Source of the DNA: Eledone cirrhosa
Lineage: Eukaryota
Direction: 5' to 3'
Length of the DNA: 15,412 nucleotides
NCBI GenBank assembly: GCA_964016885.1
Contig: CAXHJY010000172.1
Location: 1 to 15,412, forward strand
The translations under genes were made by a program, and so were the position numbers. Shown here piece after piece: positions 1,552-14,093 of the stretch. Each line of letters starts with the position of its first letter. Within the stretch, counting starts at the first letter, position 1. The notes below the pieces were generated by a model that was given only the letters and a program-made list of their open reading frames with translations, did no database searches and was not told where the DNA came from.

Positions 1552-1553
<2 letters not shown>

Positions 1554-1886
1554 GTTATTTCGGGTTGAATCGGAGGTAACCACAGTAAGTAAGGTACTCA
1601 ATACATTGCAGAGTATAAAAGTTTTAATATAGATGAGATTCTACAGGACTAGAACTGTTTCATTCTTTAGAAATCATCAGGAATCTGGGTATCAGGAATC
1701 TGGGTATCAAAAAATAAGTATGGTATTTATACAAGTGGTAGGAGAGGGTGGGGAGTGGGATGGGTGTAGGTCATTGGTTGATAGAAAAGGGAATTCATTA
1801 AAAGCTAATTCTACAAAGCTATAGTTTATTTTTATTTTTATTTTTATTTATTTTTGTTTTTAGAGTAACAAAGGCAGACAGAATTC

Positions 1887-1890: not shown

Positions 1891-1944
<54 letters not shown>

Positions 1945-1948
<4 letters not shown>

Positions 1949-2065
1949 GGAGGTGAGTGTTATTGTAGTACAATAAAGCAATGCAAATATCGGATAAGTA
2001 GCACTCTACAGTTTGTAGGACTGGAGTATAAATAATATGGAACTCTTTTAACCATCTTTTGATCT

Positions 2066-2072
<7 letters not shown>
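1945..2072. mobile_element. Penelope-like pLTR fragment, family A, with internal inversion
   Basis: 1945-2038 is the reverse complement of about 4748-4841; 2037-2072 matches 4718-4753 directly; flanked by (TA)n. Confidence 0.75.
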
Positions 2073-2145
<73 letters not shown>

Positions 2146-4125: not shown

Positions 4126-4293
4126 ATAAATATATATATATATATATATACATGTTATACATTAGTATATATGATAAACACAAAACGTGTTTGCATTGTA
4201 ACAGACAAAGTTAGCTATCAATGAAATAAACTAATTAAAGTGAATACAATTTGTCTGTCTCGATATAAGTCAATAAAGACAAGCTTGATGATA

Positions 4294-4360
4294 TATCTGA
4301 TGAGAAGGCAAATATCACCCCATGATGATATTTGTTTTTGAAATGCGCATAATAAAATAC
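4294..4360 (+). ncRNA. Minimal type I hammerhead motif (family A; 5' arm of stem I largely lost)
   Basis: CTGATGA 4297-4303; 14-bp stem II GAAGGCAAATATCA/TGATATTTGTTTTT; GAAA 4340-4343; palindromic ATGCGCAT stem III; AUA triplet 4349-4351. Confidence 0.8.
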
Positions 4361-4461
4361 ATGGAACTCTTTTAACCATCTTTTGATTTTATATGTATTA
4401 TATAATATATACACTCACACATGTATGAATATATATATATATATATATATTGTTATATATA

Positions 4462-4492
<31 letters not shown>

Positions 4493-4602
4493 TGTTATAT
4501 ATATATGTGTATGTATATATATATATATATATGTTCATACATGTGTGAGTGTATATATTATATAATACATATAAAATCAAAAGATGGTTAAAAGAGTTCC
4601 AT

Positions 4603-4669
4603 GTATTTTATTATGCGCATTTCAAAAACAAATATCATCATGGGGTGATATTTGCCTTCTCATCAGATA
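4603..4669 (-). ncRNA. Inverted copy of the 4294-4360 hammerhead motif
   Basis: Exact reverse complement within the inverted repeat. Confidence 0.8.
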
Positions 4670-4675
4670 TATCAT

Positions 4676-4841
4676 CCCATGATGATATTTGTTTTTGAAA
4701 TGCACATAATAAAATACATGGAACTCTTTTAACCATCTTTTGATTTTATATTATTTATACTCCAGTCCAATAAACTGTAGAGTGCTACTTATCCGATATC
4801 TGCATTGCTTTATTGTACTACAATAAAACTCACCTCCTACA
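4676..4841 (+). mobile_element. Penelope-like pLTR 3' portion, family A, starting in the stem II loop
   Basis: Begins CCCATGATGATATTTGTTTTTGAAA, ends CTCACCTCCTACA(TA)n; shared with the 1945 and 10753 copies. Confidence 0.75.
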
Positions 4842-5202
4842 TATATATATATATGTATATATATATATGTCACATATGTCACATATATACCACACACATG
4901 ATAATGTGTGATATATCTATATATATATATATATATACACACACATACATACATATATACACGCATATATATATACAAAGATATATATATACACAAATAC
5001 ATATACATATATATATATATATATATACACAAATACATATACATATATATATATATATATACACAAATACATATACATATATATATATACACAAATACAT
5101 ATACATATATATATATATACACAAATACATATACATATATATATATATATACACAAATACATATACATATATATATATACATGTGTATATATATATATAT
5201 AC

Positions 5203-5778: not shown

Positions 5779-6783
5779 TAACCCCTTAGTTACCAACCCG
5801 GCGAAAACCAGCTCTGGTTCTATGAAATAAAACCACCAGTTTTAAAGAGTTCCTATTTAACCCCTCAGTTACCAACCTGATCAGCTCTGGTTCTATGAAA
5901 TAAAACCACCAGTTTTAAAGAGTTCCTATTTAACCCCTCAGTTACCAACCTGATCAGCTCTGGTTCTATGAAATAAAACCACCAGTTTTAAAGAGTTCCT
6001 ATTTAACCCCTCAGTTACCAACCTGATCAGCTCTGGTTCTATGAAATAAAACCACCAATTTTAAAGAGTTCCTATTAACCCCTTAGTTACCAACCTGATC
6101 AGCTCTGGTTCTATGAAATAAAACCACCAGTTTTAAAGAGTTCCTATTTAACCCCTCAGTTACCAACCTGATCAGCTCTGGTTCTATGAAATAAAACCAC
6201 CAGTTTTAAAGAGTTCCTATTTAACCCCTTAGTTACCAACCTGATCAGCTCTGGTTCTATGAAATAAAACCACCAATTTTAAAGAGTTCCTATTTAACCC
6301 CTCAGTTGCCAACCTGATCAGCTCTGGTTCTATGAAATAAAACCACCAATTTTAAAGAGTTCCTATTAACCCCTTAGTTACCAACCTGATCAGCTCTGGT
6401 TCTATGAAATAAAACCACCAGTTTTAAAGAGTTCCTATTTAACCCCTCAGTTACCAACCTGATCAGCTCTGGTTCTATGAAATAAAACCACCAGTTTTAA
6501 AGAGTTCCTATTTAACCCCTTAGTTACCAACCTGATCAGCTCTGGTTCTATGAAATAAAACCACCAATTTTAAAGAGTTCCTATTTAACCCCTCAGTTAC
6601 CAACCTGATCAGCTCTGGTTCTATGAAATAAAACCACCAGTTTTAAAGAGTTCCTATTTAACCCCTTAGTTACCAACCTGATCAGCTCTGGTTCTATGAA
6701 ATAAAACCACCAATTTTAAAGAGTTCCTATTTAACCCCTCAGTTGCCAACCTGATCAGCTCTGGTTCTATGAAATAAAACCAC
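5779..6783 (+). repeat. 73-bp minisatellite, 14 units (first variant, last partial)
   Basis: AACCCC unit starts at 5780, 5859, 5932, 6005, 6077, 6150, 6223, 6296, 6368, 6441, 6514, 6587, 6660, 6733. Confidence 0.98.
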
Positions 6784-7142: not shown

Positions 7143-7222
7143 ACATATAAAGTATTCTATCTAACGGTCTAACAACTCTTCTAATTCGCCACCTATGCCA
7201 GTATATATATATATATATATAT

Positions 7223-7430
7223 ATAGGAACGAGTAGGACCCCGACGGCTGAGCTCAAGCCCTTTCGACAGCTAATTCTGGACTATCTTTTAGTCCAGAAT
7301 TAGCCGTCGAAACGGCTTGAGCTCAGCCGTCGCGGTCCTACTCGTTCCTATTACCCACTCTACTACCCTAAGTATTGAGTACTTTGGTGCGTTATGGTCC
7401 ACCTGGTTCCTTACCACATTTCCTTCGTTA
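7223..7430 (+). mobile_element. Penelope-like pLTR fragment with a 62-bp-arm fold-back and half hammerhead
   Basis: Arms 7223-7284/7290-7351 (3 mismatches); GAAA-CGGCT-TGAGCTC-AGCCG-TC at 7309-7331; GTATTGAGTAC 7372-7382; (TA)n on both sides. Confidence 0.75.
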
Positions 7431-7451
7431 TATATATATATATATATATAG

Positions 7452-7510
<59 letters not shown>

Positions 7511-7513
<3 letters not shown>

Positions 7514-7671
7514 AAAGTTATATTTAAATTGTTGGGTTAACAACGAGTAAATATTTATAACTGATATAAAAGCACTCAACAAGTATTTTATAATATTGTT
7601 AATATGATATCCCTGAAATATATATAACGAAATAAATATGGTTTTATAAATATAGTTTCCATTTATTTAAT

Positions 7672-7675
<4 letters not shown>
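7511..7675. mobile_element. Penelope-like pLTR fragment, family B, with half hammerhead
   Basis: 7521-7583 matches about 12660-12723; 7600-7674 matches about 12850-12923; retains the stem II 3' arm + GAAATATATATA. Confidence 0.75.
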
Positions 7676-7717
<42 letters not shown>

Positions 7718-10448: not shown

Positions 10449-10616
10449 TCACAGATTCATAATACATATATATATATACACTCATAGATATATAATACAT
10501 ATGTATGTATATATAAATATATTATATATAGTAATAATAATAAATGTGAAGACTAAAATCCAAAGAGGGCTCGATAAGGATAAATATATATCAAATATAT
10601 AAGAACCCTAGAGCAA

Positions 10617-10734
10617 ATATTTATTAAAATAACAGATTAAAGTTTAAGCAAAGAATTGCTGCTTTCACCCTTAACGTTAAGGGTGAAAGCAGCAATTCTT
10701 TGCTTAAACTTTAATCTGTTATTTTAATAAATAT
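10617..10734. repeat. Perfect 118-bp spacerless palindrome
   Basis: Centre CCCTTAAC|GTTAAGGG at 10675/10676; 59-bp arms identical. Confidence 0.97.
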
Positions 10735-10752
10735 ATATATATATATATATAA

Positions 10753-10921
10753 TGTAGGAGGTGAGTTTTATTGTAGTACAATAAAGCAATGCAGATATCG
10801 GATAAGTAGCACTCTACAGTTTGTGGGACTGGAGTATGAATAATATAAGATCAAAAGATGGTGAAAGATGGTGAAATGCGCATAATAAAATACATGAACT
10901 CCTTTAACCATCTTTTGATCT

Positions 10922-10928
<7 letters not shown>
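10753..10928. mobile_element. Penelope-like pLTR fragment, family A, with internal inversion
   Basis: Minus-orientation 3' end (10753-10867) joined to a plus-orientation piece starting at GAAATGCGCATAATAAAATAC. Confidence 0.75.
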
Positions 10929-10986
<58 letters not shown>

Positions 10987-12503: not shown

Positions 12504-12930
12504 TAGAAGGGGTATTTAATTTGTTGGAAGTCTGACAAACATAAATGTTTATAACTGATTTAGAGCACTCAACAAGCTACTGGAGTAAATATTCAATGAT
12601 ATTAAATAAATGGAAACTATATTTATAAAACCATATTTATTTTATTATATGCAAAATTTTATTTAAAATTGTTGGGTTACAACGAGTAAATATTTTATAA
12701 CTGATATAAAGCACTCAACAAGTTTTGGAGTAGATATACCAAACCAACTTTTTTAAATGGAAGTTGATCAATATTTTATGGTACATCAAATTTATTTATA
12801 AAACTGCTTATATATTGTATTTTATCTGAAGAAGGCATGCCATATTTTTAATATGGTATCCCTGAAATATGTATAATGAAATAGATATGGTTTTATAAAT
12901 ATAGTTTCCATTTGTTTAATATCGTATTTT
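12501..12930. mobile_element. Composite of Penelope-like pLTR fragments, family B
   Basis: Duplicated TTTATAACTGAT..AGCACTCAACAAG; 12598-12641 inverted relative to 12879-12923; contains a hammerhead. Confidence 0.7.
12818..12883 (+). ncRNA. Complete minimal type I hammerhead ribozyme motif
   Basis: Stem I TATTTTAT/ATGAAATA; CTGAAGA 12826-12832; stem II AGGcATGCCATATT/AATATGGTATcCCT; GAAA 12864-12867; AUA triplet 12873-12875. Confidence 0.88.
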
Positions 12931-13192
12931 ATTATATATATTTCAAGGGCGGTGAATTGGCAGTATCGGTAGAGGGTCGGACGCCATGCTTTGTAGCATA
13001 GAGTTACGTCCCTTTACGGTCCGAGTTCAAATCCCGCCGAGGTTAACTTTGCCTTTCTTCCTTACGGGGTCGATAAAATAAAGTACCAGTAATACACTGG
13101 GTATTTGCTGGCCTTGTGCCTAAAGTAGAAACAATTATAGATATTTCAAGGGTACCAAGACAACATTGGTACGCTTTCATCAGATAAAATAC
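12924..13192 (-). ncRNA. Type I hammerhead motif interrupted by the SINE
   Basis: Removing the SINE and one TSD gives GTATTTTAT-CTGATGA-AAGcGTACCAA tgttgtc TTGGTACcCTT-GAAA-TATATA-TA-ATAAAATAC. Confidence 0.85.
12948..13133 (+). mobile_element. tRNA-derived SINE (Meta/MESC-like central domain) with target-site duplication
   Basis: A-box-like TGGCAGTATCGG, B-box GAGTTCAAATCC, GCCTTTCTTCCTTACGGGGTCGATAAAATAAAGTACCAG; direct repeats ATTATA(T/G)ATATTTCAAGGG at 12931-12949 and 13134-13152. Confidence 0.88.
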
Positions 13193-13497
13193 ATAGTTTG
13201 TTTTATAAATAGAGACATACCCATGAAAAACATACCTTATCGGTTGGAAATTCACTGGATAGTGGAAATATATTAGGGATTATTCAAACTTATGTGTGAA
13301 TATGCAAATGAATATGTAAATAATTGAAAAACAACCGTTTATTTAAACGACACTGGAGAGAGAGAAGATATAAGGGGATAAAGATAAAAAATATTACGAG
13401 AGAGATAGAGAGAAGAAATAAACAAGAGAAGATATATATACATGTATATATACACACACGCTCTCTTCTATACACATATATATATATATATATCATA

Positions 13498-13970
13498 AAT
13501 CATGTCCTTAGAATCACTAGATAAAATCTATACCATTTCTTCTCCCAATTAGCATAACTAACCATATAAAAAATCAATTAGACCAAGCTATAAGAATAAA
13601 GGCTCCTATGAAGAAATTTTCGACAAATAACTGAAAGCGGACATAATATGTTATTGGATGTCTAAAAATACGGATGAAACCATGGTAGAGATATAATTAC
13701 GGTATGTACACATTTCTTCCAAGTTTGAATTTACACCTAATTGTGTATGGTTGACGGTATATTTAGTCAGTTTCCACATGCTGTTGAAATGTTGGATAAA
13801 TACTCTATTGGGGCCACCGCGAAAAGGCTGCTTTCGGTTATTTGTCGAAAATTTCTTCATAGGAGCCTTTATTCTTATAGCTTGGTCTAATTGATTTTTT
13901 ATATGGTTAGTTATGCTAATTGGGAGAAGAAATGGTATATATTTTATCTAGTGATTCTAAGGACATGATT
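13498..13970. repeat. 141-bp inverted repeat with 191-bp spacer (MITE/fold-back-like)
   Basis: 13498-13638 versus 13830-13970, two mismatches. Confidence 0.93.
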
Positions 13971-14093
13971 ATTGATATATTGCTCTGATTATTTAATTTA
14001 TTAATTCTTCATTGAGCCACAACGTGACCAGTTGCAAAACATATATATCTATGACTTTATGTATATGTAAACCTTTATATTTTATATAAATAT

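What the first reader, a model, noticed from the sequence alone, without database searches (positions are those of the whole stretch)
7223..7430. Long fold-back centred on hammerhead stem II, replacing the CUGANGA half
The right arm reads [hairpin]-GAAA-CGGCT-TGAGCTC-AGCCG-TC, a textbook stem III with a palindromic loop and GUC site, and continues into a pLTR-like tail. Where CTGANGA should be, the sequence is instead the mirror image of the GAAA side. Inference: the cDNA snapped back on the stem II hairpin and self-primed second-strand synthesis, so the ribozyme's own helix templates palindrome formation on insertion.
Basis: partly seen in the sequence, partly recalled or inferred. Interest (0 to 1): 0.8.

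Follow-up and report, generated by a model that had tools for sequence, protein, structure and literature searches.

The report
Penelope fold-back at fixed half-hammerhead end
This is a real back-to-back double copy of a very abundant short repeat, likely the end piece of a Penelope-like jumping gene carrying half a hammerhead ribozyme; the fold sits where most copies of the repeat begin, but the claim that the ribozyme's own helix primes the fold is unproven.

Summary
The fold-back is real: arms 7223-7284 and 7290-7351 (59 of 62 pairs), a 5-base loop, a 79-base tail on one arm, (TA)n on both sides. It belongs to a high-copy repeat (21,706-27,277 records laid per run) with Penelope-type anatomy: two alternative 3' ends, a head-to-head inverted copy and the 3' half of a type I hammerhead. 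Most copies begin sharply at about 7287-7288, and other fold-backs turn there with varied loops, so the pile-up is supported. The 20-bp 'stem II', however, is made by the fold-back itself. CTGANGA is in none of the 11 upstream-facing loose-end consensuses listed (30 letters each; 24 of 939 rows shown). The best reading is that the cDNA likely ran to the family's fixed 5' end and self-primed on a 2-base match. Inverted pLTRs with junction palindromes and self-priming are already in print (PMC3846280). A weaker extra: 5 of 17 listed off-centre junctions have an end exactly at the predicted cut site (corrected p about 0.04), which could record cleavage or a reverse-transcriptase stall.

The parts
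7202..7225 (.). (TA)n target on the left; its last three letters (7223-7225) fit the element as well as the flank
   Evidence: sequence
7223..7284 (-). Short arm: inverted copy of 7290-7351, ending at the family's inner 3' terminus; carries private changes at 7261 and 7269
   Evidence: majority letters G at 7261 (91% of X1 depth) and G at 7269 (3122 of 3526 X18 reads)
7285..7289 (.). Fold-back loop TCTTT; coincides with the family's common 5' end (about 7287-7288); loop letters vary among copies
   Evidence: tables 2, 3, 4, 6; ramp fit
7290..7351 (+). Long arm, first part: 5' stub plus hammerhead 3' half; private change at 7333 (majority G, 97% of X1 depth)
7301..7308 (+). Putative helix II 3' strand (inferred); its natural partner is not present in this copy
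   Evidence: position just 5' of GAAA; partner suggested only by one longer upstream form in RAD reads, table 7
7309..7331 (+). Hammerhead-like 3' half: GAAA, helix III with palindromic loop, GTC; predicted cut between 7331 and 7332
   Evidence: sequence; definition from PMC4209133; cleavage not tested
7302..7317 (+). Alternative natural 6-bp hairpin with GAA in its loop; competes with the hammerhead fold and centres one listed fold-back junction (7260-7306, in X1 and X2)
   Evidence: sequence; table 5c
7352..7430 (+). 79-base tail present on one arm only, ending at the family's outer 3' terminus
   Evidence: depth into the TA flank at both termini, table 2
7430..7511 (.). (TA)n target on the right; no target-site duplication can be read

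Best explanation
This is a head-to-head double copy of a high-copy short repeat, likely the terminal-repeat end of a Penelope-like retroelement, and it likely formed when the cDNA reached the family's fixed 5' end and self-primed there. Shown: the arms, the one-sided tail, the (TA)n flanks, high copy number, two recurrent 3' ends, a sharp common 5' end at about 7287-7288, and other fold-backs with varied loops at that end. Inferred: the element's endonuclease nicked (TA)n; reverse transcription started at the outer end (7430) and ran to about 7287; a few untemplated bases let the 3' end pair through the self-complementary TA at 7290-7291; synthesis ran back 62 bases and was joined to (TA)n at the inner terminus; each arm then mutated on its own. 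The primer was a short match at the cDNA end, not a 20-bp ribozyme helix. The fixed end probably lies in or next to the top of the parent's helix II, but whether it is the start of a truncated master RNA or a reverse-transcriptase stop is open.
For: Depth rises linearly from about 7286-7287 in both contig sets (slopes 162k and 175k per base), i.e. most copies reach that point and stop. RAD reads stop at 7288 (738 of 1099; 812 of 1113) with mixed AT-rich loose letters (agreement 0.42-0.43). A diverged subfamily without the AATT site stops at the same place in contigs (7273 'behind', agreement 0.48-0.49). Fold-backs at this end come in several registers: loop letters to A in 26-39 contigs, 1-8-base indels, a 29-contig X2 class with the mirror GACGGCTA directly before 7287, and an independent 90-base contig spanning 7223-7322 with a 10-base gap. 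Six listed junctions join a copy starting at 7291-7296 to a mirror ending at 7316-7327, five of them with 1-2 shared letters. Both arms share the same allele at 4 polymorphic sites (product of frequencies 0.10 if unlinked). Two 3' ends recur: depth at 7214-7221 versus 7430-7437 is 4,693 versus 10,863 in X18 and 653k versus 915k in X1. This matches the one-sided tail of PLEs (PMC8557442, PMC3846280) and the two RT start sites of PAc (PMC11167929). For R2, snap-back after full-length cDNA synthesis is reported (PMC11371274).
Against: No RT or GIY-YIG sequence was tied to this family (0 of 5 nearby frames hit a relevant Pfam family), so the Penelope label rests on anatomy. The tail is 79 bases, against 30-40 in the papers read. 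Short-ended arms look far more common (about 26-42% of 3' ends) than centre-spanning fold-backs (0.3-11%), which fits a separately primed second cDNA better, unless hairpins are under-sequenced. Allele sharing is weak evidence, since linked alleles would raise 0.10 to about 0.47. RAD reads probably sample only some tens of loci at this boundary, and the enzyme cuts at AATT on both sides of the centre. X1 and X2 are one sample and may be the window's source. No listed piece spans the whole locus.
Confidence: 0.5

Rival explanations
No self-priming is needed.
For: PAc cleaves and extends both strands, has two RT start sites and is predicted to be a dimer (PMC11167929). The short terminus is fixed and abundant. 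Loops vary like end-joining scars. One junction has both copies starting at 7332 with a single base between (7242-7334, table 5c). In a second family in the window, 3 of 3 head-to-head pairs carry the tail on one arm only and end the short arm at about the same place.
Against: The arms share alleles at 4 polymorphic sites (0.10 if unlinked). One junction is centred on the natural 7302-7317 hairpin, which self-priming explains directly.
Confidence: 0.25
2. One reading: the parent has a complete hammerhead; RT copies through loop II into the 5' strand of helix II, the cDNA becomes self-complementary and snaps back, so the ribozyme's helix primes the palindrome and CTGANGA is replaced by the mirror of GAAA.
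For: The fixed end lies 21 bases 5' of GAAA, where the top of a long helix II could be. The one recurrent longer upstream form (1279 and 1219 RAD reads, agreement 0.72 and 0.70) can, by eye, close a bulged hairpin of about 8 pairs with 7300-7308, including a G-C pair next to GAAA; the fixed end then lies 4-5 bases into its 5' strand. GGCTA-like letters lie 1-13 bases upstream of the end in 3 contig consensus rows. In two other hammerhead families in the window one junction each lies at the top of helix II (4669-4676; about 7593).
Against: The window's 20-bp helix is made by the fold-back. In that longer form the letters in the CUGANGA register match only 3 of 6 core positions. CTGANGA is in 0 of 11 upstream-facing consensuses (one near match in X18 at agreement 0.43, not repeated in X19). 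Loops vary instead of keeping one natural loop. Four other copies in the window with a complete or near-complete core read straight through helix II (4297, 4666, 12826, 13183), and two other junctions of the second family are not at the loop (10872, about 2028-2038).
Confidence: 0.15
3. The shared centre is inherited: a few palindromic master copies spread, and the hairpin tip was opened at insertion or one arm was later deleted, leaving many single arms that start at the old centre.
For: It would explain a sharp 5' end with both folded and unfolded copies; long palindromes are known to be unstable in genomes (own knowledge, not tested here).
Against: There are many loop variants and registers, and two diverged subfamilies share the end.
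Confidence: 0.07
4. Assembly or read artefact, or a palindromic DNA transposon (MITE).
For: No listed read or contig spans the whole locus; TA flanks also fit Tc1/mariner-type targets.
Against: Each arm has its own non-majority changes; the short arm stops at a terminus shared by thousands of reads; the ends are asymmetric and most copies have no mirror arm.
Confidence: 0.03

Closest known systems
Head-to-head inverted pLTRs of EN+ Penelope-like elements with junction palindromes (Arkhipova et al. 2013, PMC3846280; Craig et al. 2021, PMC8557442)
   Same: Inverted 5'-truncated copy at the 5' end, tail on one arm, palindrome at the junction, AT-rich or (TA)n targets; self-priming already proposed.
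   Different: No ORF here; tail of 79 rather than 30-40 bases; a whole high-copy family begins inside the hammerhead, after the CUGANGA position.
[quoted passage not shown]
   Same: GAAA, helix III with palindromic loop and GUC in type I order, near the element's 3' end; C before GAAA.
   Different: The 5' core half, helix I partner and natural helix II partner were not seen; helix III (6 bp with closing pairs) is longer than the 1-2 bp usual in animals.
PAc Poseidon element in vitro (Frangieh et al. 2024, PMC11167929)
   Same: Two RT start sites explain two 3' termini and the tail; AT-rich target.
   Different: They found no RNA reads beginning or ending at the hammerhead cut site and cleavage was not needed; here a minority of genomic junctions end exactly there.
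Snap-back 5' junctions of R2 insertions (Zhang et al. 2024, PMC11371274; PMC11331408)
   Same: A cDNA 3' end primes synthesis on the cDNA, often after reaching the template's 5' end.
   Different: Non-LTR R2 at rDNA in cultured cells; the passages read do not tie the turn point to a ribozyme helix.

Membership tests
EN+ Penelope-like element | ORF with telomerase-like RT and GIY-YIG endonuclease | tested here: inconclusive
   No ORF in this 208-base insertion; 0 of 5 frames elsewhere in the window gave a relevant Pfam hit; parent not available (no genome)
EN+ Penelope-like element | Inverted 5'-truncated copy head to head | tested here: met
   recurrent
EN+ Penelope-like element | Optional tail at one end only (two 3' termini) | tested here: met
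   79-base tail (longer than the 30-40 reported); both termini recur
EN+ Penelope-like element | AT-rich or (TA)n target | tested here: met
Type I hammerhead ribozyme | GAAA, helix III and NUH site | tested here: met
   7309-7331; GGC/GCC and GAGCTC kept in the main listed variants; the pattern alone also occurs by chance
Type I hammerhead ribozyme | CUGANGA core 5' of helix II | tested here: not met
   Absent from this copy and from 0 of 11 listed upstream consensuses; a rarer full-length parent is not excluded
Type I hammerhead ribozyme | Natural helix II and helix I | tested here: inconclusive
   Window helix made by the fold-back; a possible partner only in one longer RAD form, judged by eye; no helix I partner seen
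Type I hammerhead ribozyme | Self-cleavage | not testable with these tools
   Only indirect: 5 of 17 listed junctions end at 7332
Non-LTR retrozyme | Tandem units each with a complete type I hammerhead | tested here: not met
   Single head-to-head insertion without a complete motif; definition from 10.64898/2026.07.22.740005
MITE (non-autonomous DNA transposon) | Terminal inverted repeats at both ends of every copy | tested here: not met
   Asymmetric ends; most copies lack the mirror arm

The most novel reading that the evidence does not exclude
The hammerhead's geometry sets where this element's cDNAs end: mostly at the top of helix II, and sometimes exactly at the self-cleavage site. A family of many thousands of copies then carries only the substrate half of the ribozyme (GAAA, helix III, GUC), which full-length transcripts could cut in trans through helices I and II. 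The junction map would be a genomic record of a PLE hammerhead folding and cutting in vivo.
Probability: 0.2. Interest if true: 0.7.

Novelty: new member of a known kind. Interest (0 to 1): 0.36.

Why it matters
How Penelope-like elements make their inverted ends, and whether their hammerheads cut in vivo, are stated as open questions (PMC8557442, PMC4209133, PMC11167929). This locus alone is an ordinary example of a described structure. The family is useful because its copy ends are not random: with one assembled genome, thousands of junctions could separate self-priming from twin priming and test enrichment at the predicted cut site.

Tried and rejected
No own genome is held, so the copy-by-copy test could not be run. 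No exact match of the family core in viral contigs or metagenome contigs; a looser pattern gave 12 GC-rich loci with no similarity beyond the pattern, rejected as chance. Rfam gave only sub-threshold microRNA hairpin matches. No RNA holder was listed. Read-end peaks at 7276 and 7298 fall on AATT and are treated as restriction cuts, not biology (enzyme inferred, not on record). Homology of this arm to the window's complete hammerhead copy at 1553-1700 is only suggestive (score 42; 25 of 1000 shuffles reach it; best of 5 comparisons, chosen after seeing a 14-base match) and is not used as proof. Earlier-findings look-ups by sequence and by place found nothing. Pfam on 5 nearby frames gave nothing relevant. 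PMC7229834 held nothing relevant.

Full report
Observation. The fold-back is as described. Arms 7223-7284 and 7290-7351 pair at 59 of 62 positions around a 5-base loop; the right arm runs on for 79 bases to 7430; (TA)n lies on both sides. It folds far better than shuffles (z -20, 0 of 200). The right arm carries GAAA, a helix with a palindromic loop and GTC in the order of a type I hammerhead, and CTGANGA is absent from both strands here. The element has no second copy in the window. The right arm alone leaves 7286-7301 unpaired.

Family. No genome is held, so I laid 4 of 20 listed runs on 7214-7438: two contig sets of one sample (X1, X2, possibly the window's source) and two RAD read sets of other samples with the same species label (X18, X19). 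They gave 21,706, 22,341, 26,529 and 27,277 records, mostly 90-99% alike, so this is an abundant repeat of moderate age. At the three arm mismatches the majority letter agrees with the left arm once and with the right arm twice, so each arm has its own changes; this argues against an assembler's mirror. Two 3' ends recur: depth continues into TA both at the short end and at the long end (X18 4,693 versus 10,863; X19 4,286 versus 12,034; X1 653k versus 915k). A variant short end followed by TA shows in 1088 and 1144 reads.

The 5' end. Contig depth falls from 1.8-3.4 million just right of the centre to about 16 thousand at 7278-7285. A straight ramp starting at about 7286-7287 fits the first three bins in both sets, which is what short overlapping contigs give if most copies reach that point and stop; the fit assumes highly branched contigs. 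In RAD reads, 738 of 1099 and 812 of 1113 stop at 7288, and the loose letters are mixed and AT-rich (agreement 0.43, 0.42). Single junctions in these libraries have about 30-110 reads, so this is probably only some tens of loci. The larger peaks at 7276 and 7298 lie on AATT and are taken as enzyme cuts. A diverged subfamily lacking AATT ends at the same place in the contigs.

Do inversion centres pile up here? Yes, but as a minority of copies. In X1, 38, 39 and 26 contigs cross 7285, 7286 and 7287 with A instead of the window's letter; 11 of the 12 indel rows shown (of 20) lie at 7283-7287; 29 X2 contigs have the mirror directly before 7287; and one 90-base contig spans 7223-7322 with a 10-base gap. 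Each off-centre 'skip' junction listed has 1-3 contigs. Centre-spanning depth is 0.3-11% of the per-position depth, depending on contig length; long hairpins may be under-sequenced, and junctions at this centre are easier to lay on this reference than others.

Is CTGANGA upstream in full copies? Not in what I could see. Of 24 loose-end rows shown (of 939), 11 face upstream; none has CTGANGA in its 30 letters; one X18 row has a near match at agreement 0.43 that X19 does not repeat. One longer upstream form recurs in both RAD sets (1279 and 1219 reads, agreement 0.72 and 0.70) but does not dominate the contigs. By eye it can close a bulged hairpin of about 8 pairs with 7300-7308, which would be a plausible helix II with the fixed end 4-5 bases into its 5' strand; but the letters in the core register match only 3 of 6. 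Rows are counted by contig, so a rare full-length parent could be hidden. The test is therefore negative but weak.

Other junctions. I converted the listed junctions to element coordinates. From table 5 (15 of 131 rows shown) I used the 10 'skip' rows and dropped 5 opposite-strand rows; from table 5c (12 of 123 shown) I used 7 and dropped one duplicate and four rows of other kinds. Of these 17, five have an end exactly at 7332, the base after GTC, one with both copies starting there; two more are compatible and one is off by one. Against a uniform null p is 0.0014, or about 0.04 after allowing for 26 possible places. Two of the dropped opposite-strand rows (7291-7360, 7292-7345) are probably head-to-head junctions too and do not end at 7332, which would weaken this a little. 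The rows are the tool's best-supported ones and may not be independent loci. An end at 7332 fits run-off on self-cleaved RNA, but equally an RT stall at the foot of helix III. Six junctions join a copy starting at 7291-7296 to a mirror ending at 7316-7327, and one is centred on the natural 6-bp hairpin at 7302-7317; both fit self-priming on short matches.

Context. The window holds complete or near-complete minimal hammerheads of other families (4297, 4666, 12826, 13183, 1680) and more head-to-head pairs with a tail on one arm (1944-2078, 4559-4842, 10752-10934, 10528-10734). One junction of the second family lies at the top of its helix II (4669-4676), two do not; one copy of a third family resumes at the top of helix II (about 7593). 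These are few cases and mixed. The repeats look to me like those of a cephalopod genome; that is recalled, not tested, and nothing rests on it.

Mechanism. Most likely the cDNA started at the outer end, ran to the fixed 5' end, gained a few untemplated bases, folded on the TA at 7290-7291, copied itself back 62 bases and was joined to (TA)n at the inner terminus (0.5). Twin priming at the two RT start sites with head-to-head joining is the main rival (0.25); the abundance of short ends favours it, allele sharing (0.10 if unlinked) slightly disfavours it. Priming by the natural helix II (0.15) needs a parent that I did not see. All steps of synthesis are inferred.

Literature. PMC3846280 (passages and the Discussion) describes inverted pLTRs, 18- and 38-bp palindromes at pLTR 5' ends, and proposes self-priming. 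PMC8557442 (passages) describes inverted truncated copies, the one-sided tail and (TA)n bias. PMC11167929 (parts 1-2 of 4) shows two RT starts, cleavage and extension of both strands, and no need for hammerhead cleavage. PMC4209133 (parts 1-2 of 4) defines PLE hammerheads. PMC11371274 and PMC11331408 (passages) describe R2 snap-back. 10.64898/2026.07.22.740005 (part 1 of 5) defines retrozymes. I saw no supplements; junction data there could bear on novelty. Nine searches showed no paper that ties PLE inversion points to helix II or describes a family starting inside the hammerhead; the library lacks most subscription papers. Earlier notes of this scan report similar fold-backs in other genomes as known structures, one with a fixed 5' end read as a transcript start and one with only mild enrichment at the cut site; they are unchecked leads.

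Verdict. A real, well-preserved example of a described Penelope-type insertion. Interest 0.36; new member of a known kind.

Noticed in passing
window 10528-10734: Second fold-back of the same build: perfect 59-bp arms (10617-10734), no loop, centre 9 bases from a GAAA, about 85-base tail on one arm, (TA)n on both sides; the hammerhead-like reading after GAAA is weak.
   Followed up: partly
window 4287-4842: 195-bp palindrome centred in (TA)n that mirrors flanking microsatellite as well as a complete minimal hammerhead, followed by a head-to-head junction overlapping 8 bases at the top of helix II (4669-4676).
   Followed up: partly
window 1944-2078 and 10752-10934: Two more head-to-head pairs of that second family; the short arm ends at about the same place and the tail (about 90 bases) is on the other arm.
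   Followed up: partly
window 7477-7694 versus 12620-12940: A third family: the copy at 7477-7694 lacks the core and the 5' strand of helix II that the 12826 copy has, and resumes at the top of helix II.
   Followed up: partly
window 1553-1700 (minus): Complete minimal hammerhead followed about 40 bases after its GTC by an 11-base motif that also lies about 40 bases after the GTC of this finding; overall similarity only marginal (25 of 1000 shuffles).
   Followed up: partly
window 13488-13980: 151-bp inverted arms (97%) around a 191-base spacer with a 98-codon open frame; no Pfam hit.
   Followed up: partly
window 5780-6783: Tandem array of about 13 units of 72-73 bases.
   Followed up: no
loose ends behind 7273 in X18 and X19: One longer upstream form of the diverged subfamily, about 1,200 reads per run, median loose length 80; only 30 letters shown; best lead to the parent element.
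   Followed up: partly
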